From positions 416,001 to 480,000 of the forward strand of contig CAWIYV010000011.1 of assembly GCA_963840455.1 (NCBI GenBank): 64,000 bases of DNA, given 5' to 3'. Under the pieces are notes generated by a model. The model did no database searches. It was given only the letters and a program-made list of their open reading frames with translations, and was not told the DNA's origin. Shown piece after piece: positions 11,198 through 26,594 of the stretch (position 1 is the first letter of the stretch; every line of letters starts with the position of its first letter). The stretch is from Nitrospirota bacterium. GTDB taxonomy: Bacteria; Nitrospirota; UBA9217. Made by a program: the position numbers and the translations under genes.

Positions 11198-11223
11198 AAG
11201 AGTGCTAACAACTGAAAACGTCT

Positions 11224-11252
11224 AAAAAAAATGCGCCCCAATGGGCGCATTT
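11224..11252 (-). terminator. Intrinsic terminator after the pil operon/lipoprotein gene
   Basis: AAATGCGCCC/GGGCGCATTT stem followed by a T-run on the minus strand. Confidence 0.8.
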
Positions 11253-11292
11253 GTGTACAAGCTGTGAATTCAATTGTTCTGGGCTTTTTTTA

Positions 11293-12138: not shown

Positions 12139-12277
12139 AACGTCATAACCTCCTTGCCTCTATGCTTTCCGAAAATACTGCGATAATTTACCACTTTCAA
12201 ATATGCGCAAGCTACATAAGAATGCAGCGGCCGTCTCTTTCCATTACCCGGTCAGTGGTCCTTCTGCTCCCCCGTGC

Positions 12278-14674
12278 TCAGATCACATCCTGCTTCACGA
12301 TCCTGGGGGTGACGAAGATCAGCAGCTCGCGTTTGTCCTCCGTAGTCGTGGTTGTCCTGAACATCCACCCGAGGAGCGGAATATCACCGAAGAACGGCAC
12401 CTTGGTTATCGTCTTGCCGCGGTCGAGGATCAGAATGCCGCCGATGACCGCGGTCTCACCGTCCGTCAGAAGGATCTCGGTGGTCGCTTCGTTCTTCCGG
12501 ATCGACGGCTGGCCGCCGGCGCCGAGAACAGAGTTGTCCGGTGCGTTCTTCGTGGCCTGGATCTTCATGAATATCCGGTTGTCCGGAGTGGCGTGCGGCG
12601 TCACCGTGAGCGACAGCTTTGCATCAACGAACTGTACGTTCGTGGCGCCGCCTGCCTGGGACGTTGCGTAGGGGATCGATATGCCCTGTTCGATCTTGGC
12701 TTCCTTATTGTCCAGGGCGCTCACCCGCGGTGTGGAGATCACTTTCCCTTCGCCGGTCGACTCCATGGCTGAAAGGACGATGTCGAGGTTCAGCGCCTTG
12801 TTCAACGAGCCGAACTGGAAGCCCATCGCTCCGCCTATGCCTGGGCCCACCGGAGCAGGCATGTTCACGAAGTAGGTCCCGTTGCCCGAGGCAACGCCGC
12901 CCATGTTCGGGCCGCCGGTCACGCCGATAGTGTTCGGGAACTTCAGTCCCGTCGCATTTCCGAAGGCGGGGCTTGCATTATAATTTCCGCCCCACTGCAC
13001 GCCGAGCGAACGGTTGAAGGTCAGGGAGGCTTCCACGATCCGCGCTTCGATCATGATCTGCGGCGTCGGCTTGTCAAGCTGCTTGATGAGTGCGACGACT
13101 TCGTCAACATTCCGGATAATGTCCTTGACGATGAGGGTGTTCGTCCTCGCGTCCACCACGGTCTCGCCGCGGGTGGAGAGGGACTTCTTGATCGTCGGCT
13201 CGATCGCGCTCGCTGTCGAATAGTTGATCGGGATGATGCGCGTGACCAGGTCCTCCGCTTTTTTCTTGGCTTCCTTGGCCCTCACTTCCTCGTCTGCCTC
13301 CTTCGCGAGGGCGCCCATGGACGCGATCCGAATGATATTATCCTCGATGGTGTAGCCCAGGCCGTTCATCTTTAGAATGATCTCCATGGCCTGGTCCCAG
13401 GGGATGTTTACGAGGCGGACCGTGACCTTGCCCTTCACGTCCGGCGCCAAGATCATGTTGAGATTCGCGAGCTCGCCGAACAGCCGGAGCACGTTCACGA
13501 GATCGGCGTCCTGCAGATCAAGGGATATGCGGCGTCCGCCGTATTTCTTTGCACCCACCACCATGGCCATGCTCTCGGCCTGGGGCTGCTGACGAGGTTC
13601 TGCTCGCTCCTGTGGGGCCGGGACCGCCGCCGTTTCCTGCGGAGCCGCCTGAGGCGCTTCCCTCTCAGCTTTCTCCGTCGCAACCAGGGCCGCTTCCTGC
13701 GGCTGGGCTGCCGCGCGCTCCTGCGGTTTTTCCTCAGGCTTCGGCGACGCCGCGATGGTCATGGCGACCACGAGGGTATTCCCCTCGGGGGTGACCGTAT
13801 AGTCCATGGGTTTCGTAAGATCAAGAACGATACGCACCTTCTGTTCGGGAGTCGTGTGCTGTCCAACGCGTACCTTGTCCAGGCCGCCTTTCCTGACCGG
13901 CACCACACTGGGCCGCACGCGGCTCTTTGCCCCGGGAACGTCGATCACGAGCCGTTTTCCCTCGATCATGAAGGAGTTCGGCTTCATGGTGCCGTCAGCG
14001 GTGATCACCACCTTGGCGCCCTGTTTGGTTGCGGTGGCCTTGACCGATTTCACGATCTTTGCCGTTCCGGCCTCTCCCCCGGCCACCAGTGCTGCGGCTG
14101 TCTCGGCAGCCGGGGCTGCCTGCTCTTTCGGGGCTTCGGGCGCCGCTACTGCTTCGGGCGCGGCCTTTGCCGCCTCGACGGGCTTCGCGAACTCTACCAT
14201 AAGCTTGCCGCCTGCCTGGTAGACCTTGGTGTCCACGGACTGGGAAAGGGCGATCTCGAGCCGTGCGATATTGTCGACCTGGCTGGGAGTGATGTCGATC
14301 ACGGGTTCCTTGTTCACCGTGATCTTGTCCTTGAACTTCGCCAGGTCCGCATCGGTGATATCAACGATCAGACGGAGCGGCTCGCTAAGCTGGAACGATG
14401 TGTACTGCAGGATTGGGTCGCTCCCCTCGATCACGATCTCGGTAAGCGTTTCGGTCTCCTGCGGGGTGATCGACTGGATGGCCACCCGCGGTACAGGCTG
14501 ACCGGCTTCGGGTCCCTTTTGGCCAGCGCAACCGGTGAACAGGAAGGACACGACCGTCAGGAGCACGATGCCCCATGCGCTATGCCAGTGACCGGCCCGT
14601 GCAGCGGCAGGCATTCCTGCGACCCCTTTTCTTCCCCAAATGCTGATGTGCTTAAGGGGTTGTATGGATTTCAT
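12278..14674 (-). CDS. pilQ: Type IV pilus secretin PilQ
   Basis: Two AMIN-like domains, ISLDLQDAD, QIMIEARIVE and VPFFGDIPLLGWMF..RELLIFVTPRI. Confidence 0.96.
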   Translation of the reverse strand: MKSIQPLKHISIWGRKGVAGMPAAARAGHWHSAWGIVLLTVVSFLFTGCAGQKGPEAGQPVPRVAIQSITPQETETLTEIVIEGSDPILQYTSFQLSEPLRLIVDITDADLAKFKDKITVNKEPVIDITPSQVDNIARLEIALSQSVDTKVYQAGGKLMVEFAKPVEAAKAAPEAVAAPEAPKEQAAPAAETAAALVAGGEAGTAKIVKSVKATATKQGAKVVITADGTMKPNSFMIEGKRLVIDVPGAKSRVRPSVVPVRKGGLDKVRVGQHTTPEQKVRIVLDLTKPMDYTVTPEGNTLVVAMTIAASPKPEEKPQERAAAQPQEAALVATEKAEREAPQAAPQETAAVPAPQERAEPRQQPQAESMAMVVGAKKYGGRRISLDLQDADLVNVLRLFGELANLNMILAPDVKGKVTVRLVNIPWDQAMEIILKMNGLGYTIEDNIIRIASMGALAKEADEEVRAKEAKKKAEDLVTRIIPINYSTASAIEPTIKKSLSTRGETVVDARTNTLIVKDIIRNVDEVVALIKQLDKPTPQIMIEARIVEASLTFNRSLGVQWGGNYNASPAFGNATGLKFPNTIGVTGGPNMGGVASGNGTYFVNMPAPVGPGIGGAMGFQFGSLNKALNLDIVLSAMESTGEGKVISTPRVSALDNKEAKIEQGISIPYATSQAGGATNVQFVDAKLSLTVTPHATPDNRIFMKIQATKNAPDNSVLGAGGQPSIRKNEATTEILLTDGETAVIGGILILDRGKTITKVPFFGDIPLLGWMFRTTTTTEDKRELLIFVTPRIVKQDVI

Positions 14675-15255
14675 GGCGTCCCCTCCTGTTTTTTACGGAG
14701 CTCGATAACGATTTCCTTGCGGTTGGTTTCCCCTTGCGGGTCCTTAAATTTTTCTTCGATGACCATCGTGTTCTGCGTGATCTTCTTCACAACACCCTGG
14801 TTCGGCCCGACCTTGGTGCCAACGCGGACGAAGTAGCCCTTTCCGTCGGGGCCTTCCAGCATGGCATGATAGCCGAGCCCGCCCCAGATGATGCCAGCCA
14901 GCTTGAACTCGCTGATGGGATACCGTTCCAACGGTGCTTTCGCGCCGGCCATGGACTTCTTCTCTTCCTTGATGATGATGGGAGTGAAAGGATCCCGCCG
15001 GCCTGCCGGGTTGTACGCGTAGATCGCAGCAGGCTTCTCTTCGGCCTTTGCCTGCTCCACGGTCGCCGTCGCCGCGGACTTTGGCTGTTGCGCCGGTGCG
15101 GGGGCCGTTGCCGTCGGTTTGGTCTTGTCCGAGCAGCCGGTCAGGCCGGCCGTGGCTAGAAGCAAGAGCGCCAGTGCCGCAGCGAACCGCTTACTTAACC
15201 TGTTTAGTTGCCGAAGGCGTTTTTGGTGTCTCAACTTTCTTCTCCACTGCTGCAA
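14671..15255 (-). CDS. pilP: Type IV pilus lipoprotein PilP (start uncertain, possibly TTG 15234)
   Basis: Lipobox LTGC, YNPAGRRDPF and PLERY motifs. Operon position. Confidence 0.9.
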   Translation of the reverse strand: MQQWRRKLRHQKRLRQLNRLSKRFAAALALLLLATAGLTGCSDKTKPTATAPAPAQQPKSAATATVEQAKAEEKPAAIYAYNPAGRRDPFTPIIIKEEKKSMAGAKAPLERYPISEFKLAGIIWGGLGYHAMLEGPDGKGYFVRVGTKVGPNQGVVKKITQNTMVIEEKFKDPQGETNRKEIVIELRKKQEGTP

Positions 15256-15820
15256 AGGTCATGGCCGTGCAGTCGATATTGATCTCCATGGTCCCGTTCT
15301 TCGCCAGCTTTGGTTGATCCATCTTGACGTTCAGCATGTTCACGATCCGGGTCAGCTTGCTCACGCTGTCGAAAAAGAGGGCAACATTATGGTAACCGCC
15401 GGTCAGCTTGAGCGAGATGGGGATCTCTTCGTACATACCGCTCGAATGGGGCCTGCGTCTGTCAGGCTTCCACAGCTTGAGCGACAGCCCGGCCTTGTTC
15501 ACCAATCCCTGGATCTGGCGGAGGAGGCCGGAGACCTCCGACTCGGGAGGCAGCTGCTCGGTCAGGACCTTGAGCCGCTCCTGAAGGGACTTGACTTCCG
15601 CTCGAAGCTGGTCGAGCTGCTTGATCTTCGCGTTGTTCTCCCGTATCTTTGCCTGCTGCTGCGCGATCTCGCCTTCCAGCTTCCGGATCTCGGCCGTCTT
15701 TGGAATATGGACCTGCCAAATGAAGAGGACCACTATAGCGATGATCAGGCCAACGAACGCCCCGGTGCGCGTTTTCGTCGGGATCTTCTGCAGTTTGTCG
15801 AGTATCGCGGGAGCAGCCAT
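15191..15820 (-). CDS. pilO: Type IV pilus assembly protein PilO
   Basis: TM helix plus coiled coil, QLPPESEVSGLL and GGYHNVALFF..LTRIVN. Confidence 0.93.
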   Translation of the reverse strand: MAAPAILDKLQKIPTKTRTGAFVGLIIAIVVLFIWQVHIPKTAEIRKLEGEIAQQQAKIRENNAKIKQLDQLRAEVKSLQERLKVLTEQLPPESEVSGLLRQIQGLVNKAGLSLKLWKPDRRRPHSSGMYEEIPISLKLTGGYHNVALFFDSVSKLTRIVNMLNVKMDQPKLAKNGTMEINIDCTAMTFAAVEKKVETPKTPSATKQVK

Positions 15821-16368
15821 TATAACCCCTTGTACTTGAACTGGAGCTTGTATTCGTAGATCTCGTACCCTTCCTTGTTCTTCTGGACCGTTTCCATGAG
15901 ATTGACGTCCGTGAAGTATGGCGACGCCTTCAGGTTGTCCACGAATTTCACCACGTCCTCGTTCGAGAAGGCCTCGCCGGCGAGATTGATGCTTCCGCTG
16001 CTCTCCACCATCGAGAGGAGGTCAACGCTGACGGGGATCGCTCGGCTGATCTCGTCAAGGAGCCGGACCGGGCCCTGCTGGTTCTTCTTGAGCTGCTCGA
16101 TGATCCCAATCTTGTCGGTGACCTTTTTGCGCTCATCCTCGACGTTCTTGACCTCTTTCAGCATATTTTCCTGCCGCGCGACCTCGGCCATCGCAGCGTC
16201 CCTCTCCTGGGTCCTCGCTGCAATCTTGCTGTTCAGGCTGATGAAATAGAAGGCCATACCGGCAATAACACCGCCAAACACCACGACAGCGATGATGAGC
16301 TGCTTCTGCAGCTCGGTGACCTTCCGGGCAGGCTTCCGCTTGGTCGGTAGGAGGTTTATCTTGATCAT
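15820..16368 (-). CDS. pilN: Type IV pilus assembly protein PilN
   Basis: MIKINLLP N-terminal motif, TM helix and coiled coil. Confidence 0.94.
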   Translation of the reverse strand: MIKINLLPTKRKPARKVTELQKQLIIAVVVFGGVIAGMAFYFISLNSKIAARTQERDAAMAEVARQENMLKEVKNVEDERKKVTDKIGIIEQLKKNQQGPVRLLDEISRAIPVSVDLLSMVESSGSINLAGEAFSNEDVVKFVDNLKASPYFTDVNLMETVQKNKEGYEIYEYKLQFKYKGL

Positions 16369-17417
16369 CGGTCGCTCGGCCTCCTCATCGCAAGACCTAC
16401 CGCAACGGCAGCAAGGGGCGCGGTATCGCTGATGAACCCTGCATCAAAATGCTTCGGGTCAACCTTGATATTTTTGAAGGGATTGATGACGTCCACGGGG
16501 ATCTCGATCCTCTCCGAAAGGACCTTGATGAATTGGGCGATCTTAGCACACCCGCCCGATACCAGCACATGATTGACCTTGTCGCTCCCGGTCGTGGAAC
16601 GGAAAAAATCGAATGACTGCTGGATCTGTGCCACGATCTCCTCGGTCACCGACGACATGATCCCGGAGAGCTGTTCCCGGTCGACCCCGCCCACGGCCTC
16701 GCCGCGCTTCACCTTCTCTGCATCCTCGTAGCTGAGGCTCGCATCGCGCTGCAAAGCTTCCGTATATTTGTTGCCTCCAACCGTGATATCGCGGGTAAAG
16801 ATGGAAACCCCGTCCCGCAGGATATTGATGTTCATCACCGACGCGCCGATGTTCAGGAGCGCCGTGATCCCCGCTTCCACCTCATAGTTCAGCTCGCACA
16901 TGTTGGCAAGAGCGAATGCGTCGACATCCACGATGACCGGCTCCAGTCCCGCATCCTTCACCAGGTTCACGTAATCGTTGATCTTGTCCTTTTTCACGGC
17001 GACCAGGAGCACATCGGCCTGCCCTTCGGCGGCACCCGGCCCGAGCTTCTGGAAGTCGACGTTCACGTCGTCGATGGAAAACGGGATGTACTGCTCCGCC
17101 TCCCACTTGATGGACTCGGCAAGCTCTTCCTCGGTCATGTCCGCGATGGAGATCCGCTTAATGATGACCGAACTCCCTGAGACCGAGAGTACGACCTCCT
17201 TGGTCTTGACCTTCTGAGAGTTGAGGAGCTCCTTGATTGCCTCGGACACGCGGTTCGCGTCCATCACCGCGCCTTCGACGATCACCTCGGCCGGCAGCGG
17301 GACCATCCCGTACTTGACCAGGCTGAAACTCTTCCCGGACCCCTTCAGCTGCACCAGCTTGATGTAGGTGGAGCCGATGTCGAGGGCGATAGGTTCTATC
17401 TTTCTGGAAAACAGCAT
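16365..17417 (-). CDS. pilM: Type IV pilus assembly protein PilM
   Basis: ALDIGS actin-like motif, EAEQYIPF and VDVDAFALAN. Confidence 0.96.
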   Translation of the reverse strand: MLFSRKIEPIALDIGSTYIKLVQLKGSGKSFSLVKYGMVPLPAEVIVEGAVMDANRVSEAIKELLNSQKVKTKEVVLSVSGSSVIIKRISIADMTEEELAESIKWEAEQYIPFSIDDVNVDFQKLGPGAAEGQADVLLVAVKKDKINDYVNLVKDAGLEPVIVDVDAFALANMCELNYEVEAGITALLNIGASVMNINILRDGVSIFTRDITVGGNKYTEALQRDASLSYEDAEKVKRGEAVGGVDREQLSGIMSSVTEEIVAQIQQSFDFFRSTTGSDKVNHVLVSGGCAKIAQFIKVLSERIEIPVDVINPFKNIKVDPKHFDAGFISDTAPLAAVAVGLAMRRPSDR

Positions 17418-17454
17418 GCTCACCCCGGATGCGGTTATGCCGCACAATTGATCG

Positions 17455-17652
17455 TCAGGCGTTCTTGCCCCTGATGATCTTTTCGATCACTTTCAGATTG
17501 TTCTCGTTGTAGATCCGCCAGCCGCGCCAGTCGCGACCAACCCCTGGGAGCAATCCTTCGCTCTCCCACCGGAAAAGCGTTGCCCGGGAAATGTCGAATC
17601 TGTCGCAGATCTCCTTGGTTTTATATATTCTCGGGTTTTTACGCTTGACCAT
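17455..17652 (-). CDS. Small MerR/BldC-like winged-HTH protein with no effector domain
   Basis: 65 aa with ISRATLFRWESEGLLP..RDWRGWRIY. GAGG RBS. Confidence 0.85.
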   Translation of the reverse strand: MVKRKNPRIYKTKEICDRFDISRATLFRWESEGLLPGVGRDWRGWRIYNENNLKVIEKIIRGKNA

Positions 17653-18224
17653 CGCAACCTCTCTGTCATGACTAGTGATACTATTTATAGTAAGTATAGT
17701 TACTATGATATCCAAATCATTCTGATTGTCAAGAATAATTAAAAAAATATTTCATTTTTTTCAAACACATACAGCATCTTGTATTTTATCAGCGCAAAAA
17801 TACAAGATTATGTGGCCCTCACGCATCATTTTTTTTCGCCACGGGGCCCGAAAAGACCGCATGCGATGCCCGAAGGGCTACGATCACCGTGCTGTGGAGC
17901 TGTTGCGATGCTGTTCCCGTGCAAGAAGCTTGGTAGTGTCCAGCCCTCGCGGCTCCGTCTCCTGTGCTCACGCGATCCTTCCTTCGACCCTCCTCAGGAA
18001 CGCTCCTCGCGTTTCCCAATCAGTGAACCTGGTGCCCTGTCCCAGCAGAACGAGCGAACAGTCCTGCCCTGCTTCCTGAACGAGGACCTGCGGTCAAACG
18101 TCGGTCCGCTGCAGAATAGGAGCACTCGGCAAAAAAACAAATGTGACGACCGGACAGGGATAACAGAAGGGGACACGAGAACGCACGCGAAGGATCTTTA
18201 CGCCGCAAGGAAGGTGTCTGAGAT

Positions 18225-18260
18225 AAAATAACGCCGGCAGGTCAGGGACCAGCCGGCGTT
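18225..18260 (-). terminator. Putative terminator after cooS
   Basis: AACGCCGGC/GCCGGCGTT stem, then ATTTT on the minus strand. Confidence 0.6.
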
Positions 18261-18308
18261 CAAGATTCCTTTTCTCAGGAAGAGAACAGCGAAGAGGTGT
18301 TTCCGACG

Positions 18309-20288
18309 CTACACATCCACCCCGTGCGGGGTGGCAAAGGAGCCGCGGCGCGCCTTCATGTCGAGGAGCACGCGCTCGGTCCCGAAAGCACCGGGCTCGT
18401 ACTTCCGGATCTTGAGCTTCTCGCGGGCGGAGTCGATGAGCTTCAAAGCGAGTTCGAGGATCTTGCCCGGGTCCTCCTCGAAGTAGAAGCCCGCGGTGAA
18501 CTGCTCCCACCACTTGTTCTCCATGATGTCCTTCAGCGTCTTGCTGGCGCTGACCGGGGAACCTGCTCCGAAGATGATCGGTACACCGGAGGCAACGAAG
18601 TAGGTTCCGATGGCGATGGCCTTTTCGCTCATCCACTCGGGGCCGATGCCCACGGCCGGGAGGCCGCCAATATCGTCGCCCAAGCCGCCTTCCTCGGCAA
18701 TGTGGGAGGCGATGGTCAGGATGCGCGAGTTGTCAACGCACGAGCCCAGGTGGAGGATAGGCGGGATGCCGATGGCCTCGCAGACCTGGCGGAGGCCCGG
18801 TCCGGCGTTCTCCATGGCGTTCTCCGGCGTCATATAGCCGGCCTTGGCCGACGCGTGCGCCGAGCAGCCGGTCTGGACCACGAGCACGTCGTTCTTGATG
18901 AACTCGCGGGACAGGAAGTTATGGATGCTGTCCTGGCTGATGCGCGGGTTGTTGCAGCCTGCAAGGCCAACCACGCCGCGGATGCGGCCCGAGATGATGG
19001 CGTCGTTCAACGGGCGGTACGAGCCGCGGTACTGGCCGCCCTGCATGTATTCGATGTACTCGTCCGAGAAACCGGCCACCATATTGGGCTGCTTTAACGT
19101 GGCATGGGTCACCAGTTCTTTCTTGCGGTTCGGGAAGTTGTCGATGGCGATCTTCAGGACCTTCTTTGCGATGTCCATGGCATGGTGTTCGTCATACTCG
19201 ATATGGGTCGCATCCACCATCTTGCCCTTGGGCGTCGTGGTGATGATCTTCGTATGGAACTTTTTGGCAAGCTGGCCGATCGCCGGCATGATGCACTGGA
19301 CGTCGACGGCCATGGCCTCGATCATGCCCGTGACCAGGCCGAGTTCCTGCTGCAGGAACCCACCGGCCGTGGCGATGCCGTGCCGGACCAGGATCTCGTT
19401 CGCGGTGCAGCACATACCCACGAGGTTCACGCCTTTGGCGCCCTTGGACTTGGCATAGGCGACGATCTCAGCGTCGTCCGTTGCCTCGACGAGCATCTCG
19501 GCGAAGGACGGCTCATGGCCGTGGACCACGAAGTTCACATAGTCTTCCTTGAAAACGTCGAGGCTCGCGGTCGCGGTGACCGGGTGCGGCGTGCCGAACA
19601 GGATATCCGAGATGTCCGTGCCGATCATGGAGCCGCCCCAGCCGTCGGCGAGGGACGTGCGCAGGGCGCCGAGCATGATGTTCTCCGGCTCCTGGTCTAC
19701 GCCCATGGCGGTCCGGTGCAGCATCTCGACGCACTCGCGGTCGATGCCGCGCGGCGCAATGCGGAACTTGCGCCAGATCTCCTGGCGTCGCTTTGGCGCG
19801 CGGGACAGATAGACCAGTTCGCCGTTCTGCTGGCCGAACTGCTCGATGAACTTGAGGGCCACTTCCTCGGCCACCTTGTTCACGGGCTTGCCTTCGATAT
19901 TGATGTTGAGGTACCCCGCAACACGGTTCAGCTTGCGCACGTCCTTGATCTTGAAGTCCTTAGCTTCGCCGCGTGCGGCCGCGAGGAGTGTGTTCGCCAG
20001 GTCGCGGGCATGGTCGGAGTGGGCTGCGGTGCCCGCGGCGACCATGCGGGCGAAGTTCCGCGCCGTCACTACCGGCAGCGTTGCGCCGCATACGCCCTGG
20101 GCCTCGTCTTCCTTGCCTACGAGGCGGCAGGGGCCCATGTGGCAGATCTTGCAGCAGGCGCCCTGGTGCCCGATCGGGCAGGGCTTGAGCTTTTCAGCGC
20201 GGTCGAACGACGTTGTTATGTTCTTCTGCCCGGCCACCTTCAGCAGCACCTGGGCAGCAGGGTCAACGGATCTCTGATTTTCCTTCAT
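18309..20288 (-). CDS. cooS: Anaerobic Ni,Fe carbon monoxide dehydrogenase catalytic subunit
   Basis: CCKICHMGPC, HSDH, HGHEP, MCCTANE, VDVQC, GCNN, TGC, GSCVDN and MSEKA. Confidence 0.96.
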   Translation of the reverse strand: MKENQRSVDPAAQVLLKVAGQKNITTSFDRAEKLKPCPIGHQGACCKICHMGPCRLVGKEDEAQGVCGATLPVVTARNFARMVAAGTAAHSDHARDLANTLLAAARGEAKDFKIKDVRKLNRVAGYLNINIEGKPVNKVAEEVALKFIEQFGQQNGELVYLSRAPKRRQEIWRKFRIAPRGIDRECVEMLHRTAMGVDQEPENIMLGALRTSLADGWGGSMIGTDISDILFGTPHPVTATASLDVFKEDYVNFVVHGHEPSFAEMLVEATDDAEIVAYAKSKGAKGVNLVGMCCTANEILVRHGIATAGGFLQQELGLVTGMIEAMAVDVQCIMPAIGQLAKKFHTKIITTTPKGKMVDATHIEYDEHHAMDIAKKVLKIAIDNFPNRKKELVTHATLKQPNMVAGFSDEYIEYMQGGQYRGSYRPLNDAIISGRIRGVVGLAGCNNPRISQDSIHNFLSREFIKNDVLVVQTGCSAHASAKAGYMTPENAMENAGPGLRQVCEAIGIPPILHLGSCVDNSRILTIASHIAEEGGLGDDIGGLPAVGIGPEWMSEKAIAIGTYFVASGVPIIFGAGSPVSASKTLKDIMENKWWEQFTAGFYFEEDPGKILELALKLIDSAREKLKIRKYEPGAFGTERVLLDMKARRGSFATPHGVDV

Positions 20289-20470
20289 GGTCGTTACGAT
20301 CTCCTTTCAGTCGACATGTATCAAAAAGGGGGCGAAAACCGCCCGATTTATTGGAGCGAGGTGCATTATACGAAAGAGCACAGAATAATGCTACAGGAAG
20401 TTACGCACTGACCCTTCAACAGCTAAAATCCTGGCTGAAGGATATCTGCCGCGCCGGCTTGAACCGCCGG

Positions 20471-22633
20471 TTATCGCTTCGTCACTGTTTCCTGAACCAC
20501 GAGCACCTTCTTGACCGCAGACTGCGCCAGCAGTCCGGCATTCAGTGCCATGAGGATTGCGGTCGTGGACTCCGATGCAGGCTTCCCGGCCTTCGCAGCT
20601 ACGGGCTTGAACGCCGCAACGTCGAGCTTCGCGGCCTTGGCCTTTTTCGCGTTAGCAGCAACGTCTTTCACCGTGAAGCCCTTGGCCTTGTTCATCACGA
20701 GCGACAGTTCAGCCGCGATGTCAGCCCCGTCCTTGGCCACGCCTTCGGGGTCCTGAGCAGCAGTAAACGTCTTCTGCTGCCCGTAGGTCGTGACGATGGT
20801 GCCGCCCCGCTCGTACAGCGCCGCCATGGGCAGCACCACGTCGGCCTTCTCCGCGAGGGCGGTCAGATGGCTCGTTTGAACAACGAGGAAGTCCGATTTC
20901 AGATCTGCATCGGGAACATTCCCGGCGACAAAGAGCGCCTTCATGCCGGCACTCATGTCCGCATATCCCTTGCCCGCCTTCTTGATCTTGGCAAAACCCG
21001 GTCCCAGGTCAGCGAGGCAACCCATCTGCATCACGCCAAGGGCGTTTGCCTCGGGCAGGAGCGGTAGCACGCCTGCGTCCTTCAACAGCGCCAGGTTCAG
21101 CGCCTGCGTCGATGCTTCCTCGCTGGCCGAGATGCCTGTGCCGATCACAATTACGGGATTCTTCGCCGCGGCATAGGCCTTGGCCGCCGCAAGGATCTGC
21201 TCTGCGGCAACACCGGACGCTGAGGCTGCAGCTTCGACGGTCACCAGCGACTTTTTCAGGGCATCAAGCCCCTTTGCGGACGGGGCAGCGCCTTCGGCGA
21301 GCGCCGCGGTCATGAGGCCCGCGAGCAGCGACGTATCGGTGCCGGCCTTGAGCTGGAGCAGGATGGCGTTCGCGTGATGGGCGAGGTCCGTCTTTTCCGT
21401 GCTCACCACGATCACCTTGGCGCCAGCCTGGGCGCGGCGGCGGATCATAACATCCGCTTCCTGCATGGTCTGCTTCTTCTGCGACGGATCGGCGCCGATC
21501 ACGACCACGGCGTCGGCAGTTTTCAGGTCGGCCCGAGACGCGATCCCGATGCCCGCGTCACCGTAGACCGCACGCAGGGCGCTGATCAGGCCGCCCGCAT
21601 AGGCCGAGGCCGGCGTGTCGATGTTGGCGCTCCCCGCCGCGTCGCGGGCCAGTGACTGCACCGCCATGGCCTCTTCGTTCGTGAGCGAGCCTGAAACGAT
21701 GAACCCGGCGTTGGCCCCGGCCTTCTTCAGGCCGTCGGCCGCGATCTTGAGCGCCTCGCTCCAGGTCGTCTGCACGAGCTTCTTGCCTTCCCGCTTCATC
21801 GGCGTGGTAACGCGGTTCGCCGAGCGGTGCACGTCGAAGCCGAACCGGCCGATCACGCAGATGTACCCGTTGTCTTCCTTCGCGTTCACCTTGACGATCT
21901 TCCCGTCCTTCTTGGAGACGACCACGCTGCAGCCGGAACCGCAGGCCGTGCAGACCGCGTCATGCTTTGCGAGGTCCCACTCCCGGCCGTGCTGCCACCG
22001 GTCGCGCTCCATGATGGTGTTCACCGGGCAGGCGTCGATACAGCTCCCGCAGAAGGTGCAGCCTGATTCGTGGAGCGGCTTATCCAGGGCCGTCGAGACC
22101 TTGGAGGTGATGCCGCGGCCCATGAAATCGAGCACGTTCGTATTCTGCTCCTTGCAGACCCGGACGCACCGGCCGCAGAGGATGCAGTAGTTGTTGTCGA
22201 TGGTGATGAAGGGGCTCCGGTCGTTCAGCGGGTAGTTGAAGCTCTTCCTGCCGAACGAGGATTCCTGGATCTTCAGGTCGGCAGCGTAACGCTGGAGATC
22301 GCAGGTGCCGGCCTTGGGGCAGGTCATGCAATCCAGGGGATGGAAGGAAAGGATCAGGTCGGTCACGAACTTCCGGATCTCCTCCACCTTGGGGGTCTTG
22401 GTCTGGACCTTCATCCCCTCCTTGGTGCGGGTGGTGCAGCCGGTGACCGGGGTCTTCAAACCCTCGATCTCCACCATGCACATGCGGCAGGCGCCCACGC
22501 CGCGAAGCTCCTTGATGTGGCAGAGGTTCGGGATATGTACCCCCACCGTCGCCCCGGCGTCCACCAGTGTCATGCCCTCGGGCACCTGGTAGGACTTACC
22601 GTCGAACTCCATGGTCACCATCTTCGTCGTCAT
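20471..22633 (-). CDS. NuoG/FdhA-like FeS subunit with degenerate molybdopterin domain (BfuA-like)
   Basis: 2Fe-2S (GACRMC), HxxxCxxCxxxxxC, two CxxCxxCxxxC and CxxCxxxC. No Cys/Sec-His at the Fdh active-site position (NIDTPASAY). Confidence 0.85.
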   Translation of the reverse strand: MTTKMVTMEFDGKSYQVPEGMTLVDAGATVGVHIPNLCHIKELRGVGACRMCMVEIEGLKTPVTGCTTRTKEGMKVQTKTPKVEEIRKFVTDLILSFHPLDCMTCPKAGTCDLQRYAADLKIQESSFGRKSFNYPLNDRSPFITIDNNYCILCGRCVRVCKEQNTNVLDFMGRGITSKVSTALDKPLHESGCTFCGSCIDACPVNTIMERDRWQHGREWDLAKHDAVCTACGSGCSVVVSKKDGKIVKVNAKEDNGYICVIGRFGFDVHRSANRVTTPMKREGKKLVQTTWSEALKIAADGLKKAGANAGFIVSGSLTNEEAMAVQSLARDAAGSANIDTPASAYAGGLISALRAVYGDAGIGIASRADLKTADAVVVIGADPSQKKQTMQEADVMIRRRAQAGAKVIVVSTEKTDLAHHANAILLQLKAGTDTSLLAGLMTAALAEGAAPSAKGLDALKKSLVTVEAAASASGVAAEQILAAAKAYAAAKNPVIVIGTGISASEEASTQALNLALLKDAGVLPLLPEANALGVMQMGCLADLGPGFAKIKKAGKGYADMSAGMKALFVAGNVPDADLKSDFLVVQTSHLTALAEKADVVLPMAALYERGGTIVTTYGQQKTFTAAQDPEGVAKDGADIAAELSLVMNKAKGFTVKDVAANAKKAKAAKLDVAAFKPVAAKAGKPASESTTAILMALNAGLLAQSAVKKVLVVQETVTKR

Positions 22634-22660
22634 AGCAGCCTCCGGAATACCAATTCGTTT

Positions 22661-22726
22661 GATTGTAAATTTGAGATTGGAGATCGAAAATTTTCAACCT
22701 TCACTTTTCAATTTCCAATATTCAAT
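22661..22726. repeat. Inverted arrays of degenerate heptamers in an operon spacer
   Basis: (GATTGTA)(AATTTGA)(GATTGGA)(GATCGAA)...(TTTCAAT)(TTCCAAT)(ATTCAAT). Confidence 0.65.
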
Positions 22727-22741
22727 AAGCGCTCTGTAGCT

Positions 22742-23413
22742 TTACTTCGCCGGCGATATGGTTTCCGCCATGTCGTGGATGGAGCAAACCGGGGCCTTGC
22801 CAGTCGGCCTGCCGCTGACATCGCAGGTGCAGACCAGTGTCCGCACGGGCTCCTTTGCCGCTTCCTCGCGAATCTTCTCCACGATGACCACGGCGCCCTC
22901 GGGGCAAACCTTGATGCATTCGCCGCAGTGAGTGCAGCGCCGCTGCCGAATGCGGTAGGGTGTGAACCCGCCCTTGAACCCCTCGGCCTTCTGGCCTTCG
23001 ATGGCGTTGTCTTTGCAGACCTCGCGGCACTTGTCGCACATGGTGCACTTGTCGGGGTCGATCTCGTAGATCACGAGGGCCGCGCACTCGCGGTGGCTGC
23101 AGACGCCGTCGATATGCCGCTGCAGGTCGTCCTTGTGCTGGGCGAGGAACGCGGCGAGGATGTCGGCGTGGTCCTTCCCCTTCTTGCACATACCGCCATC
23201 CTTCACGTCGGCGGCGATGCGCGCCAGCTGGGCCGCGTGCTTCGCGCTGCCGTGGCCCGACTGGATGGCCTCGAAGATCTTGATGGCATCAAAGATCCCG
23301 AGCTTGCAGGGGTGGCACTTGGAGCACATGCCGGTCTTCGGGTCGTCGTTGTAGAAGAACGCGAGCTTCAGCCGGGTGCTGTTTACGGGGCACTTACTTT
23401 CCTGCTTTGACAT
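22742..23413 (-). CDS. FeS protein resembling the NuoF/HydB C-terminal part (4Fe-4S helical domain + 2x[4Fe-4S])
   Basis: MCSKCHPCKLG..MCKKG, CTMCDKCREVC and CTHCGECIKVC. Start MSKQESK after a GGGAGG RBS. Confidence 0.85.
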   Translation of the reverse strand: MSKQESKCPVNSTRLKLAFFYNDDPKTGMCSKCHPCKLGIFDAIKIFEAIQSGHGSAKHAAQLARIAADVKDGGMCKKGKDHADILAAFLAQHKDDLQRHIDGVCSHRECAALVIYEIDPDKCTMCDKCREVCKDNAIEGQKAEGFKGGFTPYRIRQRRCTHCGECIKVCPEGAVVIVEKIREEAAKEPVRTLVCTCDVSGRPTGKAPVCSIHDMAETISPAK

Positions 23414-25292
23414 GGGCCCCTCCCTTCTCGACGACGATGGCCTGCGTGGGGCAGACGCCGTAGCATGCCTTGCACTTGGTGCAATAGTCCTGGTCGATGT
23501 AGAACCGGTCGCGGAGCTCAACGACGGCGTCAAATGCGCAGGCCGTCTTGCAGAGGCCGCAGAGGATGCAGTGCTCGGGCCGGATGCGGAACATGCCGAG
23601 GCCCTGGCAACGCTTGGCGCGGCAGAACTTGTCGCGCACGTGCTCCTCGTACTCCTCGCGGAAGTATTTGATGGTGGAGAGCACCGGATTCGGCGCACTG
23701 TTCCCGAGGCCGCAAAGCGAGGTGGATACGATCAACTTGCCCATCTTCTCCAGCCGCTCGATGTCCCCCTCCTCGCCCTTGCCCGAGGTGATCTTGTCGA
23801 GGAGCTCGTACATCTGCCAGGTGCCGACGCGGCAGGGCGGGCATTTGCCGCAGGACTCGCTCTTGGTGAAGGAGAGGAAGTACTTGGCCACGTCCACCAT
23901 GCAGTCGTCCTCGTCCATGACCACCATGCCGCCGGAACCCATGATGGAACCCACGGTCGCCAGGGTGTCGAAGTCCACTTTCAGGTCGAGGAACTGGGCC
24001 GGGATACAGCCGCCCGACGGGCCGCCGGTCTGGACCGCTTTGAACTCCTTCTCGGGGTTAAGCATGCCGCCGCCGATGTCGAAGATGATCTCCCGGAGCG
24101 TGATGCCCATGGGGACCTCGATGAGGCCGGTGTTCTTGATCTTGCCGGTGAGGGCGAAGACCTTGGTACCCTTGGACTTCTCGGTGCCGATGTTGATGTA
24201 GTAATCGAGACCCTTGGTGAAGATGGTCGGCACGTTCGCGAAGGTCTCGACGTTGTTGAGGTTGGTGGGCATACCCCAGAGGCCGCCTGCCGCTTCGGAG
24301 AGGCGTGGTGGACGGGGGCGCGGCATGCCGCGCTCGCCCTCGATCGACGCGACCAGCGCCGTGGACTCGCCGCAGACAAAGGCGCCTGCACCTTCCTTGA
24401 TCTCGCAGTCGAAGTCGAGGCCGCTGCCCAGGATGTTCTTGCCCAGGAGGCCGAGCGCTCGTGCCTGGCTGATGGCCACGCCCAGGTTCTTCACAGCCAG
24501 CGGATACTCGTGCCGCACGTAGAGGTAGCCGTGCTGGGCGCCGATGGCGTAGGCGTTGATGATCATGCCCTCGAGCACCGAATGGGGATCGCCTTCCATG
24601 AGCGAGCGGTCCATGAACGCGCCCGGGTCGCCTTCGTCGCCGTTGCACACCACGGCCTTGACCTTGGCGCCCGACTTTTTAGTATGCTCCCACTTAAGGC
24701 CCGCCGGGAAGCCGGCACCGCCGCGGCCCCGGAGGCCCGACTTCTTAACGACGTCGATGACCTCGTCGGGCTTGAACTCGGTCAGGACCTTTGCCAGGCC
24801 CTCGTAGCCGTCCTCGCGGACCGCGTCGTAGATGTTGCAGGGGTCCACCACGCCGTTCCGGTGGAGCGCCAGGCGCTTCTGTTTCTTATAGAACGGGATA
24901 TCGGTCACGGCAACGTTCGGGTCGGCAAGGGACTCTTCGCGGTAGAGCTTTTTGCGATACGGCAGGCCCCGGAGCACCGATTCGGAGAAGATGCCGGACA
25001 CATCGGGGACCTTCACCTTCTGATAGAAGATCTCCTGGGGGTCCTGGATGACCACCGGGCCACGCTGGCAGAAGCCCTGGCAGCCGGTCTTCACGATCTC
25101 GAGGGGAACGTTCTTCTTTTTCGCCTCTTCCTCGAACTGCTTGATCAGCTTGCCGGAGCCCGTGGCCTGGCAGGCCGTGCCGCAGCAGACGCGGACGCGG
25201 TGTGCGTCGTTCTCCTGGTGCTCCTTCTGAAGCTTCGCCCGGAGAGCCCTGAGTTCCTTGACGTTCTCGAGCCGCTTAAACGTGAGTTCCAT
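23394..25292 (-). CDS. NADH/FMN-binding HydB/NuoF-like subunit (BfuB-like)
   Basis: GLRGRGGAGFP, NGDEGDPGAFMDR, FVCGE, GGPSGG, SCGKCPPCR, N-terminal 2Fe-2S and C-terminal 2x[4Fe-4S]. Confidence 0.94.
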   Translation of the reverse strand: MELTFKRLENVKELRALRAKLQKEHQENDAHRVRVCCGTACQATGSGKLIKQFEEEAKKKNVPLEIVKTGCQGFCQRGPVVIQDPQEIFYQKVKVPDVSGIFSESVLRGLPYRKKLYREESLADPNVAVTDIPFYKKQKRLALHRNGVVDPCNIYDAVREDGYEGLAKVLTEFKPDEVIDVVKKSGLRGRGGAGFPAGLKWEHTKKSGAKVKAVVCNGDEGDPGAFMDRSLMEGDPHSVLEGMIINAYAIGAQHGYLYVRHEYPLAVKNLGVAISQARALGLLGKNILGSGLDFDCEIKEGAGAFVCGESTALVASIEGERGMPRPRPPRLSEAAGGLWGMPTNLNNVETFANVPTIFTKGLDYYINIGTEKSKGTKVFALTGKIKNTGLIEVPMGITLREIIFDIGGGMLNPEKEFKAVQTGGPSGGCIPAQFLDLKVDFDTLATVGSIMGSGGMVVMDEDDCMVDVAKYFLSFTKSESCGKCPPCRVGTWQMYELLDKITSGKGEEGDIERLEKMGKLIVSTSLCGLGNSAPNPVLSTIKYFREEYEEHVRDKFCRAKRCQGLGMFRIRPEHCILCGLCKTACAFDAVVELRDRFYIDQDYCTKCKACYGVCPTQAIVVEKGGAHVKAGK

Positions 25293-25764
25293 GTTCGCTC
25301 CTCACCGAGGCAATGATATCGTCCACCATCTTTGGCGTCAGTTCGCCGTACAGGTCCTGGTCATTGACGGTCAGCACCGGGGCAAGGGCGCAGCACCCCA
25401 CACAGCCGACGGTCTCGAGGGTCACGGCCCGGTCCGCGGTGGTCTCACCCTCCTTGATGCCGAGCTTGTTCTCCATCTCGGTCAGGACGGCTTTGCCGCC
25501 GCGCACGTGGCACGCGGTCCCGGCGCAGACCTTCACGATCTTCTTGCCGCGGGGTTTGAAATGGAAATGCTTGTAGAAGGAGGCGACGCCGTAGACCTGG
25601 GACAGGGACAGATTGAGCTGTTCGGCGATCATCTTCATCGCGTCCTCGGGAAGATAGCCAAGCTTTTCCTGGGACCGCTGAAGCACGGCGATCAGGATAC
25701 CGCGTTGGCCCTTCACGTCGCTCAGAATGGTGTCGATGGATTTGATCTCTTCCTGCTGAAGCAC
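25276..25764 (-). CDS. HydC/NuoE-like 2Fe-2S subunit
   Basis: YGVASFY, VCAGTACHVRG and GCVGCCALAP. Confidence 0.94.
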   Translation of the reverse strand: MLQQEEIKSIDTILSDVKGQRGILIAVLQRSQEKLGYLPEDAMKMIAEQLNLSLSQVYGVASFYKHFHFKPRGKKIVKVCAGTACHVRGGKAVLTEMENKLGIKEGETTADRAVTLETVGCVGCCALAPVLTVNDQDLYGELTPKMVDDIIASVRSEHGTHV

Positions 25765-25924
25765 GGTAGGAACCTCCCTCTCTTCCGATAGAGCAACAGT
25801 TGTCCCGGGGGCGGCAACGGTGCGTGTTGCTCTTCACGACGCTAGTATACTGATGATGTTAGAAGAGAAGCCAGAAACGACGGCAGGAACAAATACACTG
25901 CCAAGCAAGGCGCTCGATAAATTT

Positions 25925-25942
25925 TTGTTACGAAAATAACCA
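25925..25942. promoter_or_regulatory. Rex-like palindrome upstream of the nuoE-like gene
   Basis: TTGTTA-CGAAAA-TAACCA, an 18-bp imperfect palindrome similar to TTGTGAA-N4-TTCACAA. Confidence 0.35.
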
Positions 25943-26594
25943 CTAGAGTTGCGAAATCAATCAACAACAAAGTCCTCATACTTCGAAGGGTTAGTGATAT
26001 TAGCAATTGTTTTTTTAAAAATCAAGACAAAATTCACCAACAATATGGTGCAGAAAACGGCCTTATTTCCCGAAACCAGTCCGGATCTCTCTTCTCGCCT
26101 ATCGGCCCCTTGTCTCCCTTCACCCTCTGCACCCGTCCCCCAGACCTCTCGACATATCCCTCTTCTTTTTGTAATGTATGATTACCTATCGAGCTTTCAA
26201 TAACGGTAACATGAAATTGTTACCGATAGAGAATAACGACAGATTTGCCGTTATCATCAGGAATTATGTTCTGAACAAGGGCCTGGATACGACAGTTCAT
26301 CCGACGGCAGCGAGGCCCACGATGCCTCTTCCCGAACAGCCAGCCGCGCAGAATAACAGGAAGGACCGCGGGGAGAAACGCGATGGCCGCTGAGGGCAGC
26401 GACAGCGGATGATCCGAAAGCTTCGGGACAGGGCAGATAGGGGCAACAAAAATGCCGGCAGAAATTTTATCCTGCCGGCTTGTTTCTCTTTCCGATACGG
26501 GGGCGGTGCGTAACGGGTCCGCTCCTTCATCGGTGACTCAAAGCATCGACAAGAACGGAACGGACCCCCATTTTTTCCCTGACCACTGCTCGAA

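What the first reader, a model, noticed from the sequence alone, without database searches (positions are those of the whole stretch)
18309..25764. Candidate electron-bifurcating CO dehydrogenase complex (HydCBA/Bfu-like module + extra FeS subunit + CooS)
Seen: nuoE-like, nuoF-like, FeS, nuoG/fdhA-like and cooS genes in series, with no acsB, cooC, cooF or hydrogenase adjacent. The NuoF-like subunit has the long architecture (N-terminal 2Fe-2S, C-terminal 2x4Fe-4S) and the AFM, FVCGE and GGPSG motifs associated with bifurcating HydB. Known: HydABC-type cores couple NAD(H) and ferredoxin to varied catalytic modules. I know of no biochemically characterised CODH-coupled version. Inference: CO/CO2 interconversion coupled to NADH + ferredoxin. 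The 182-bp gap before cooS leaves co-transcription unproven.
Basis: partly seen in the sequence, partly recalled or inferred. Interest (0 to 1): 0.7.

Follow-up and report, generated by a model that had tools for sequence, protein, structure and literature searches.

The report
Bifurcating-type NADH module linked to CO dehydrogenase
An anaerobic Nitrospirota bacterium keeps the only CO dehydrogenase of its carbon-fixing acetyl-CoA pathway next to a flavin/iron-sulfur module of the type that splits electrons between NADH and ferredoxin, which suggests an untested and cheaper way to power CO2 reduction.

Summary
Five minus-strand genes lie in series: hydC-like, long hydB-like, a 223-aa Fe-S protein, a nuoG-like protein without a catalytic site, and cooS.

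The HydCB core has every sequence feature of the bifurcating Bfu family. However, cooS is not a stand-alone CODH. It is the genome's only CODH, and acsBCDE and cooC lie on another contig. It is orthologous to the acsB-adjacent CODH of sister lineages.

Of 80 related loci, 66 link the module to cooS and/or acs genes in at least four different gene orders. The other 14 are cut by contig ends. In 251 Nitrospirota genomes, 97 Fe-S subunit orthologues occur only where AcsB is present. In one Brocadiia-labelled contig, cooS and the module appear to have arrived together.

[quoted passage not shown] That makes it a variant of the "Codh-Bfu" predicted by Schut et al. 2022, which has never been purified. 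It differs in having no CooF, a long BfuA and an extra paralogue of the HydB C-terminal half.

Points against are that cooS carries its own conserved promoter-like element, that some lineages lack the module, and that a stand-alone fused paralogue exists. This scan found comparable modules earlier in other phyla.

The parts
25276..25764 (-). hydC / bfuC-like subunit (162 aa), thioredoxin-like [2Fe-2S]
   Evidence: PF01257 matches full length with E 1e-50. NCBIfam NuoE scores 152.3 against a cut-off of 141. It overlaps hydB by 17 nt, as in 33 related loci.
23394..25292 (-). hydB / bfuB-like subunit (632 aa). It has an N-terminal [2Fe-2S] domain, an FMN/NADH domain, an N3-type [4Fe-4S] and two C-terminal [4Fe-4S] motifs. 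It also has a Cys/Thr/His/Cys/Cys site like the B2 site of bifurcating enzymes.
   Evidence: The Pfam architecture is. It scores 735 bits end to end against the A. mobile NiFe-Bfu HydB (7t2r_B), and 706, 702 and 640 bits against other solved bifurcating HydB chains. The B2-site residues were read from that alignment.
22742..23413 (-). Extra Fe-S subunit (223 aa). It is a paralogue of the C-terminal half of HydB, without the FMN domain.
   Evidence: Its best PDB matches are residues of about 430-625 of HydB-type chains. C30, C33, C36, C76, H100, C105, C110, C123, C126, C129, C133, C160, C163, C166 and C170 are invariant in 54 sequences. It is fused behind HydB in an 897-aa protein in L105.
20471..22633 (-). 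nuoG / bfuA-like subunit (720 aa). All five cluster motifs (A1-A5) are present, followed by a degenerate, non-catalytic molybdopterin-oxidoreductase-like domain.
   Evidence: Domains are. The FdsA active-site Cys-His is replaced and the alignment ends before the cofactor-binding C-terminal domain. The best full-length structural relative is the NiFe-Bfu HydA, 7t2r_A.
20361..20406 (-). Conserved promoter-like element in the nuoG-cooS gap. It has the form AACTT..GTAGC..T-rich..TATAAT, with the TATAAT at 20370-20365, 76 nt before the cooS ATG.
   Evidence: A perfect TATAAT lies 55-78 nt before the ATG in 27 of 38 gaps. A PWM built from 20 loci of other genera scores this site 42.7, against 26.8 for the next best site in the whole genome. 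This is a sequence inference only.
20330..20344 (-). Terminator-like hairpin GGGCGGTTTTCGCCC followed by a T run, about 40 nt before the cooS start
   Evidence: Found in the scan, where such sites were no more frequent than in shuffles. My stricter search found it in L024 (same genus), but in the window itself that search returned a different hairpin. It was not found in the other gaps. Its significance is doubtful.
18309..20288 (-). cooS (659 aa), the Ni-CODH catalytic subunit and the only one in the genome. It is an orthologue of acsB-linked AcsA.
   Evidence: TIGR01702 scores 593 against a cut-off of 478. The only other Prismane hit in the genome is hcp. The best solved relative is the CODH chain of the C. 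autoethanogenum CODH/ACS, 6ytt_B, at 601 bits. The cluster-ligand positions are invariant in 54 sequences.

Best explanation
The four genes hydC, hydB, Fe-S and nuoG-like encode a Bfu-type (HydABC-type) flavin/iron-sulfur complex. It binds NAD(H) at FMN and has the full cofactor set of enzymes that split or merge electrons between NAD(H) and ferredoxin.

Its A subunit has no active site of its own. The catalytic partner is the neighbouring CooS, which in this organism is the CODH of the CODH/ACS of the Wood-Ljungdahl pathway. AcsB, AcsC, AcsD and AcsE are encoded elsewhere in the genome.

Proposed reaction: 2 CO2 + NADH + 2 Fd(red) <-> 2 CO + NAD+ + 2 Fd(ox), with protons and water omitted. 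CO is drawn off by, or supplied from, acetyl-CoA synthase. Because the steady-state CO level is kept very low, the CO2/CO couple would then lie between NADH and ferredoxin.

Shown here: the gene content, the cofactor motifs, the loss of the FdhA active site, the orthology of CooS with AcsA, and the linkage of the genes across rearrangements.

Inferred: physical docking of CooS to the module (through the extra Fe-S subunit or through BfuA), the use of ferredoxin, and the stoichiometry and direction of the reaction.
For: 1. Bfu core features are all present.

2. The A subunit is non-catalytic. Compared with R. capsulatus FdsA and the genome's own Sec-FdhA, the Cys/Sec-His is replaced and there is no Molydop_binding domain.

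3. In family f1, 22 genomes have both genes. In 20 of them the nuoG-like orthologue lies 96-430 nt upstream of cooS on the same strand. In the other two the genes lie on separate small contigs.

4. Of the 80 best loci holding the Fe-S subunit, 66 link the module to cooS and/or acs genes:
- 39 have nuoG>cooS.
- 22 have cooS>hydC, and 18 of those have acsB directly before cooS.
- 3 have the module between acsC and acsB-cooS.
- 1 has acsB>hydC.
- 1 has cooS-nfnBA-hydC.
The remaining 14 are cut by a stretch end on the side where cooS lies in other loci.

5. When the cluster left the acs operon in family f1, only cooS went with the module.

6. Phylogenetic profile in 251 Nitrospirota genomes that are at least 90% complete. 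The Fe-S search hit 98 genomes, and AcsB was found in 136. One Fe-S hit (G116) lies in a 606-aa HydB-type frame and is not an orthologue. G116 is absent from the AcsB list. By family tallies and my reading of the two lists, the other 97 all have AcsB. No Fe-S orthologue was found in the 115 genomes without AcsB.

7. Joint loss. The genus g11 genomes G073 (one contig, 98% complete) and G059 keep acsB but have neither cooS nor the Fe-S subunit.

8. In the Brocadiia-labelled L097, CooS nests inside the Nitrospirota clade (83% best identity). NuoG-like, HydB, Fe-S and HydC reach 76, 72, 70 and 65%. AcsB is a long branch outside, with a best identity of 55%. This suggests that cooS and the module were transferred as one block.

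9. The thermodynamic rationale for a low-CO Codh-Bfu is given in PMC9304861 (passages read).
Against: - No physical evidence of a complex exists.
- In family f1, cooS has a conserved promoter-like element of its own. The nuoG-cooS gap (median 146 nt) is the widest in the cluster.
- Many AcsB-positive lineages have the CooS orthologue without the module. These include families f2, f3, f7, f15 and f20, and genomes G027 and G082. CooS therefore does not need the module.
- A paralogous hydC-[hydB+Fe-S fusion]-nuoG-like module stands alone in L105, with no cooS within 18 kb. Similar frames of about 900 aa occur in four more f25 genomes. A module of this type can therefore exist without an adjacent CODH.
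- At standard potentials CO can reduce both NAD+ and ferredoxin directly, so bifurcation is not obviously needed (PMC9304861, Table 1 and text).
- The relatives are mostly one phylum, so the counts overstate independence.
Confidence: 0.55

Rival explanations
1. The module is an autonomous Bfu-type enzyme. For example, it could balance NAD(H) and ferredoxin with a diffusible third carrier, or work with the NfnAB-like pair. On this reading it is only co-located and co-regulated with Wood-Ljungdahl genes, and CooS exchanges electrons with free ferredoxin as in known CODH/ACS.
For: - A stand-alone fused paralogue without cooS exists in L105, and four more frames of about 900 aa occur in f25 genomes.
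- NfnAB-like genes flank the module in 12 of 80 loci, and also in G036.
- cooS has its own promoter-like element in family f1.
- CooS orthologues work without the module in several families.
Against: - The A subunit has no catalytic or nucleotide-binding domain that could serve a third substrate.
- Among the acs genes, only cooS moved with the module in family f1.
- cooS and the module were lost together while acsB stayed in genus g11.
- cooS and the module appear to have been transferred together in L097.
Confidence: 0.28
2. It is a monofunctional CO-oxidising Codh-Bfu that scavenges or detoxifies free CO, independent of acetyl-CoA synthase.
For: No acs gene lies within about 7-10 kb in the window, or in any of the 39 loci with the same gene order. 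Schut et al. 2022 propose such a role for the Firmicutes Codh-Bfu (PMC9304861, passages read).
Against: - It is the only cooS in a 100% complete genome that has acsB, acsC, acsD, acsE and cooC. ACS would otherwise lack a CODH.
- Orthologues at 58-66% identity sit directly behind acsB.
- The closest solved chain is the CODH of a CODH/ACS.
Confidence: 0.07
3. The nuoG-like protein is itself catalytic, for example a cryptic formate dehydrogenase, and cooS is an unrelated neighbour.
For: It has a Molybdopterin-domain hit, and its best PDB hit by score is a formate dehydrogenase alpha subunit.
Against: - The active-site Cys/Sec-His is replaced.
- A 12-residue deletion lies beside the active site in half of the family.
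- There is no cofactor-binding C-terminal domain.
- The genome has two complete Sec-FdhA genes elsewhere.
Confidence: 0.02

Closest known systems
Codh-Bfu / 'CodhABCSF', predicted by Schut et al. 2022 (PMC9304861) and discussed in PMC12318220. It has never been purified.
   Same: A BfuABC-type core is encoded with a Ni-CODH catalytic subunit. The proposed coupling is CO/CO2 to NAD(H) and ferredoxin.
   Different: The published examples are Firmicutes. The 2022 paper lists four sequences, and its data set excluded metagenomic data. They have a short Type 2 BfuA that lacks the A3 and A5 clusters, plus CooF-type subunits, and they are discussed as CO oxidisers. Here the host is Nitrospirota and BfuA is long (A1-A5 plus a dead molybdopterin-like domain). 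There is no CooF, and an extra paralogue of the HydB C-terminal half is present. The CODH is the AcsA type of CODH/ACS.
NiFe-HydABCSL of Acetomicrobium mobile (PDB 7T2R/7T30), a structurally solved Type 3 Bfu enzyme
   Same: It is the best PDB match for HydB (735 bits) and the best full-length match for the nuoG-like subunit. Its A subunit also carries a non-catalytic molybdopterin-like domain, and extra subunits bring the catalytic site.
   Different: Its catalytic partner is a NiFe hydrogenase, not a CODH. It has no extra HydB-C-terminal paralogue.
CODH/ACS of Clostridium autoethanogenum (PDB 6YTT) and Moorella thermoacetica (PDB 1MJG)
   Same: CooS here matches their CODH chains at 601 and 469 bits, with the cluster-ligand positions conserved. 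The genome encodes AcsB, AcsC, AcsD and AcsE.
   Different: Those enzymes are known to use free ferredoxin (recalled, not from a call), and no Bfu module is part of them. Here cooS is unlinked from acsB and carries a conserved 33-residue C-terminal tail.
WorABCSL, the bifurcating tungsten aldehyde oxidoreductase of A. mobile (PDB 9MQX)
   Same: It has the same BfuBC core (9mqx_B scores 697 bits against HydB). It also follows the principle that a low-potential third substrate at very low concentration is coupled to NAD+ and ferredoxin (PMC9304861).
   Different: It has a short BfuA and a polyferredoxin nanowire (WorS). Neither is present here.

Membership tests
Bfu (HydABC-type) electron-bifurcating family, as defined in PMC9304861 | BfuB with an FMN/NADH domain and an N3-type [4Fe-4S] cluster (B1) | tested here: met
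   Complex1_51K, SLBB and NADH_4Fe-4S domains are present. The protein aligns end to end with solved HydB chains.
Bfu (HydABC-type) electron-bifurcating family, as defined in PMC9304861 | N-terminal [2Fe-2S] (B5) and two C-terminal [4Fe-4S] clusters (B3, B4) in BfuB. These are absent from non-bifurcating homologues. | tested here: met
   PF01257 matches residues 27-101 and Fer4 motifs lie at 569-619. The Cys residues are aligned with 7t2r_B.
Bfu (HydABC-type) electron-bifurcating family, as defined in PMC9304861 | B2 site: Cys, Cys or Thr, His, Cys, Cys around the B1 motif | tested here: met
   In the alignment to 7t2r_B the query has C, T, H, C, C at the positions the paper names as C438, C476, H525, C531 and C536 (positions from the paper). 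Chain numbering is off by one at two of these positions.
Bfu (HydABC-type) electron-bifurcating family, as defined in PMC9304861 | BfuC with a [2Fe-2S] cluster (C1) | tested here: met
   PF01257 matches residues 10-154 of 162 aa.
Bfu (HydABC-type) electron-bifurcating family, as defined in PMC9304861 | Tightly coupled reduction of NAD+ and ferredoxin by a third substrate | not testable with these tools
   This needs an enzyme assay.
Codh-Bfu / CodhABCSF (predicted) | cooS encoded in one cluster with bfuABC | tested here: met
   The arrangement is conserved in relatives.
Codh-Bfu / CodhABCSF (predicted) | A CooF-type polyferredoxin subunit (WorS homologue) between CooS and BfuA | tested here: not met
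   No CooF-like ORF is in the cluster or its flanks. The extra Fe-S protein is a HydB C-terminal paralogue.
Codh-Bfu / CodhABCSF (predicted) | Type 2 BfuA that lacks the A3 and A5 clusters | tested here: not met
   All five cluster motifs are invariant, and a molybdopterin-like domain follows.
Codh-Bfu / CodhABCSF (predicted) | BfuB belongs to clade 49 of the published tree | tested here: inconclusive
   The best PDB hit is the A. mobile NiFe HydB, which the paper places in clade 49. No tree with the paper's sequences could be built.
Ni-CODH catalytic subunit (CooS/AcsA, TIGR01702) | Score above the curated cut-off | tested here: met
   593.1 bits against a cut-off of 478.
Ni-CODH catalytic subunit (CooS/AcsA, TIGR01702) | Ligands of the C, B and D clusters | tested here: met
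   H258, C294, C332, C445, C475 and C517, together with C37, C45, C46, C49, C54 and C67, are invariant in 54 sequences. They are aligned with 6ytt_B. Which residue binds which cluster is recalled from CODH-II structures and does not come from a call.
CODH component (AcsA) of bifunctional CODH/ACS | Encoded next to acsB | tested here: not met
   This is not met in the window or in the 39 loci with the same order. It is met for orthologues in G036, G027, G035 and G026, and in 18 of the 22 loci with the cooS>hydC order.
CODH component (AcsA) of bifunctional CODH/ACS | The only CODH in a genome that encodes AcsB, AcsC, AcsD and AcsE | tested here: met
   The genome is 100% complete.
CODH component (AcsA) of bifunctional CODH/ACS | Physical complex with AcsB | not testable with these tools
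   Not tested.
Catalytic molybdo/tungstopterin formate dehydrogenase (FdhA), considered for the nuoG-like subunit | A Cys or Sec metal ligand followed by His, and a Molydop_binding domain | tested here: not met
   The genome's own FdhA has both features.
Respiratory complex I NuoEFG | Short NuoF, membership of a nuoA-N operon, and scores above the NCBIfam cut-offs | tested here: not met
   NuoF scores 472 against a cut-off of 559, and NuoG scores 349 against 470. There are no nuo membrane genes nearby. The 426-aa NuoF paralogues lie elsewhere in the genome.

The most novel reading that the evidence does not exclude
The extra Fe-S subunit is a duplicate of exactly the part of HydB that forms the low-potential (ferredoxin) arm, and in some genomes it is fused to the end of HydB. 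If it extends that arm and plugs into CooS, then CODH replaces ferredoxin as the low-potential partner of the bifurcation.

A mid-potential donor entering through the nuoG-like subunit, for example ordinary ferredoxin, would then be split between NAD+ (downhill) and CO2 reduction at about -520 mV (uphill). This would explain how these bacteria reduce CO2 to CO with only moderately reducing ferredoxin. In reverse, CO and NADH together would generate reduced ferredoxin.
Probability: 0.12. Interest if true: 0.85.

Novelty: new variant of a known kind. Interest (0 to 1): 0.6.

Why it matters
How cells pay for the reduction of CO2 to CO (about -520 mV) is a central open cost item of the Wood-Ljungdahl pathway in organisms living near the thermodynamic limit.

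A Bfu module attached to the CODH of CODH/ACS would let NADH supply half of the electrons. In acetate oxidation it would recover NADH and reduced ferredoxin together. That would change energy budgets for anaerobic Nitrospirota, which are widespread in aquifers, sediments and soils.

In this sample the Fe-S subunit was found in 97 of 136 AcsB-positive genomes.

The work also gives a defined five-gene set, with natural variants (a fused form, forms with a CBS extension, and lineages with and without the module). These could be used to test the still unpurified 'Codh-Bfu' class.

Tried and rejected
- **Complex prediction of CooS with the Fe-S subunit.** The score was 0.00 and the tool gave no verdict. 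This is not evidence either way.

- **RNA evidence for co-transcription.** Four soil metatranscriptome runs from one study were laid on the window. They are kept only as short contigs (about 150-360 nt). These cover parts of all five genes, but no listed piece bridges the gap 20289-20470. Contigs also cannot show transcript starts, and DNA carry-over cannot be excluded. Co-transcription stays unresolved.

- **Rfam scan of 17300-26400 at E<=1.** It returned only a chance-level hit, so there is no known riboswitch or leader in the gap.

- **The gap motif as a shared regulon signal.** The PWM scores only the cooS site highly. The hydC upstream region did not rank among the top 30 sites, so the regulon idea was dropped.

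- **Terminator-like hairpin before cooS.** It was not found outside the genus, and such sites were no commoner than in shuffles.

- **sigma-54 reading of the motif.** It was rejected by inspecting the spacing in the output.

- **Literature searches.** None turned up a paper that describes this Nitrospirota module or the HydB-C-terminal paralogue. Inoue et al. 2019 (PMC6344411, passages read) note only that NuoEFG-type COGs occur in Wood-Ljungdahl contexts of Ni-CODHs. PMC13056359 (term search only) does not mention NADH or Nuo. PMC8671834 (passages read) remarks that nuo genes are often near Wood-Ljungdahl genes. Supplementary trees and tables of PMC9304861 were not opened and could hold related entries.
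Full report
**1. What is in the sequence**

On the minus strand of the window lie five genes in series:
- hydC-like, 25276-25764, 162 aa;
- hydB-like, 23394-25292, 632 aa;
- an Fe-S protein, whose likely start gives 22742-23413, 223 aa;
- nuoG-like, 20471-22633, 720 aa;
- cooS, 18309-20288, 659 aa.

HydB has the long architecture. cooS passes the curated CODH model at 593 bits against a cut-off of 478. The gap before cooS is 182 bp. Nothing related to acs, cooC, cooF or a hydrogenase lies between about 11.3 and 33.5 kb. By the names sources give to the closest CooS homologues, the organism is an anaerobic Nitrospirota. Its genome also has dsrAB and a NiFeSe hydrogenase.

**2. Anatomy of the module**

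HydB aligns end to end with the solved bifurcating HydB chains. The best is the A. mobile NiFe-Bfu at 735 bits. At the positions that Schut et al. 2022 give for the unusual B2 site, it shows Cys, Thr, His, Cys, Cys.

The nuoG-like subunit keeps all five cluster motifs. However, it has lost the Cys/Sec-His of formate dehydrogenases and lacks the cofactor-binding C-terminal domain. This holds against both R. capsulatus FdsA and the genome's own Sec-FdhA. It is therefore an electron-transfer scaffold like NuoG or the NiFe-Bfu HydA, and the module needs an outside catalytic partner.

The extra Fe-S protein is a paralogue of the C-terminal half of HydB. Conserved ligands for a B1-like, a B2-like and two ferredoxin-type clusters are present in 54 sequences. 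In L105 it is fused behind HydB in one 897-aa protein, which argues that it sits on HydB.

**3. What kind of CODH this is**

The genome is 100% complete and has only this cooS. The other Prismane hit is hcp. On contig C10 lies a Wood-Ljungdahl cluster. Its order is cooC, acsE, acsD, acsC, acsB, a second hydC/hydB-like pair, a Sec-FdhA, then fhs. An hdrA-like, mvhD and metF-like set lies upstream. That cluster has no CODH.

CooS orthologues at 58-66% identity in sister families sit directly behind acsB. The closest solved chain is the CODH of the C. autoethanogenum CODH/ACS. The cooS of the window is therefore most likely the AcsA of this organism's CODH/ACS.

**4. Linkage of the module with cooS**

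- *Family f1.* In 20 of the 22 genomes that have both genes, the nuoG-like gene lies 96-430 nt upstream of cooS. The other two are split over small contigs. The full five-gene order was seen in six fetched loci.

- *Genome collection.* A search with the Fe-S subunit found 280 relatives. The best 80 loci were kept and mapped:
  - 39 have hydC-hydB-FeS-nuoG-cooS with no acs gene within the stretch.
  - 22 have cooS-hydC-hydB-FeS-nuoG, and in 18 of these acsB directly precedes cooS.
  - 3 have the module between acsC and acsB-cooS.
  - 1 has acsB directly followed by hydC.
  - 1 has cooS, a reversed nfnBA pair, then hydC.
  - 14 are cut by an end on the side where cooS lies in other loci.

- *Phylogenetic profile.* The sample was 251 Nitrospirota genomes that are at least 90% complete. 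The Fe-S search hit 98 genomes and AcsB was found in 136. One Fe-S hit, G116, lies in a HydB-type frame and is not an orthologue. G116 is absent from the AcsB list. By family tallies and my reading of the lists, the other 97 all have AcsB, and no orthologue was seen in the 115 genomes without it.

- *Joint loss.* Genus g11 genomes keep acsB but lack both cooS and the Fe-S subunit.

- *Joint transfer.* In the Brocadiia-labelled L097, AcsB is a long outside branch with a best identity of 55%. CooS nests within the Nitrospirota at 83%, and the four module proteins reach 65-76%. This suggests joint transfer of cooS and the module. A chimeric contig cannot be excluded.

**5. Evidence that cuts the other way**

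- The nuoG-cooS gap in family f1 carries a perfect TATAAT 55-78 nt before the ATG in 27 of 38 gaps, with a conserved upstream block. A matrix built from other genera scores the window's site 42.7, against 26.8 for the next best site in the genome. cooS therefore probably has its own promoter, which fits its need to match AcsB made elsewhere.
- Several AcsB-positive families have CooS without the module. In G082 the module's place is taken by a TnpB-like gene and a DUF3786 gene.
- A fused paralogous module stands alone in family f25.
- Most loci come from one phylum, so the counts are not independent.

**6. Mechanism**

The best reading is a Bfu-type complex that connects NAD(H) and ferredoxin to the CODH of CODH/ACS. 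CO is held at a very low level by ACS, so the CO2/CO couple falls between the two carriers. This is the argument Schut et al. make for low-potential substrates (PMC9304861, passages read).

Where CooS docks is open. It could dock on BfuA, as the hydrogenase does in NiFe-Bfu, or on the Fe-S subunit, which extends the ferredoxin arm of HydB. The second option gives the more novel case, in which CODH takes the place of ferredoxin.

**7. Comparison with what is known**

A 'Codh-Bfu' was predicted in 2022 from four Firmicutes sequences and was still unpurified in 2025 (PMC9304861; PMC12318220, passages read). The present system fails two of its descriptive features, because it has no CooF and a long rather than short BfuA. 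It adds a new subunit and belongs to the acetyl-CoA pathway.

Earlier notes of this scan report Bfu modules, with CooF, inside CODH/ACS operons of a planctomycete, a spirochaete and another bacterium. The theme has therefore been seen before on other DNA. The Nitrospirota form described here is a further variant.

**8. Verdict**

This is a new variant of a predicted, uncharacterised enzyme class, of moderate to high interest. The decisive work is biochemical.

Noticed in passing
G000 contig C10, locus L022 6492-19639 (minus strand) and L023: This is the genome's Wood-Ljungdahl cluster. Its order is cooC-like, acsE, acsD, acsC, acsB, a second hydC-like and a 587-aa hydB-like gene, a selenocysteine FdhA with an intact cofactor domain, a cNMP-binding protein, then fhs. 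An hdrA-like (1087 aa), mvhD and metF-like set lies upstream. The genome therefore has a likely Fdh-Bfu beside acsB and the CODH-linked module elsewhere.
   Followed up: partly
L016 (G016:C2) 9526-11506; L106 (G143:C1) 2454-4431: In two related genomes cooS is read in two overlapping frames. This is an apparent frameshift, or a sequencing error, near residue 180-196.
   Followed up: no
L003 9425-11770, and HydB ORFs of 771-783 aa in 18 of the related loci: In the acs-embedded form, HydB carries a C-terminal extension of about 150 aa. In L003 this is a CBS-domain pair, which hints at control by adenine nucleotides. The window's HydB lacks it.
   Followed up: partly
L012, L059, L060, L068, L078, L082, L096: Two hydB genes lie in tandem before the Fe-S gene. 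In L012 there is also a second hydC.
   Followed up: no
L105 (G182:C3) 6390-12217: This is a stand-alone paralogous module in which HydB and the Fe-S subunit are one 897-aa protein. No cooS lies within 18 kb, and a 760-aa protein without any Pfam hit lies next to it on the other strand. Similar frames of about 900 aa occur in G186, G202, G228 and G248.
   Followed up: partly
G073, G059 (genus g11): These genomes have acsB but no CODH detectable with this CooS at E<=1e-30. G073 is a single contig and 98% complete. How their ACS would obtain CO is unexplained.
   Followed up: partly
L104 (G082:C9) 8886-11159: Between nfnB and cooS, where relatives have the module, lie a 511-aa protein with a Cas12f1-like/TnpB TNB domain and a DUF3786 protein. 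This looks like a natural replacement of the module.
   Followed up: partly
window 18309-18407 (CooS residues 627-659): CooS has a 33-residue C-terminal tail beyond the end of the solved homologues. Its positions Y630, G633, F635, G636, E638, L641, D643, M644, A646 and R647 are invariant in 54 sequences. Matches in module-free relatives extend to residues 648-652, so at least part of the tail is not specific to the module.
   Followed up: partly
L036, L050, L061, L065, L066, L076, L090, L101 and others; own genome C1:203392-205799: An NfnAB-like pair (a DHODB-type Fe-S/NAD-binding subunit plus a GltD-like subunit) flanks the module in 12 of 80 loci. In the window's genome the pair lies on another contig.
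   Followed up: partly
L056, L064, L103, L092: Loci almost identical in arrangement and similarity to the Nitrospirota ones come from records titled Betaproteobacteria, Deferribacteres or 'bacterium'. Mis-binning or recent transfer could explain this.
   Followed up: no
window 12278-17715: A pilM-pilN-pilO-pilP-secretin (pilQ) operon, preceded by an 86-aa MerR-type HTH protein, lies directly downstream of cooS on the same strand.
   Followed up: no
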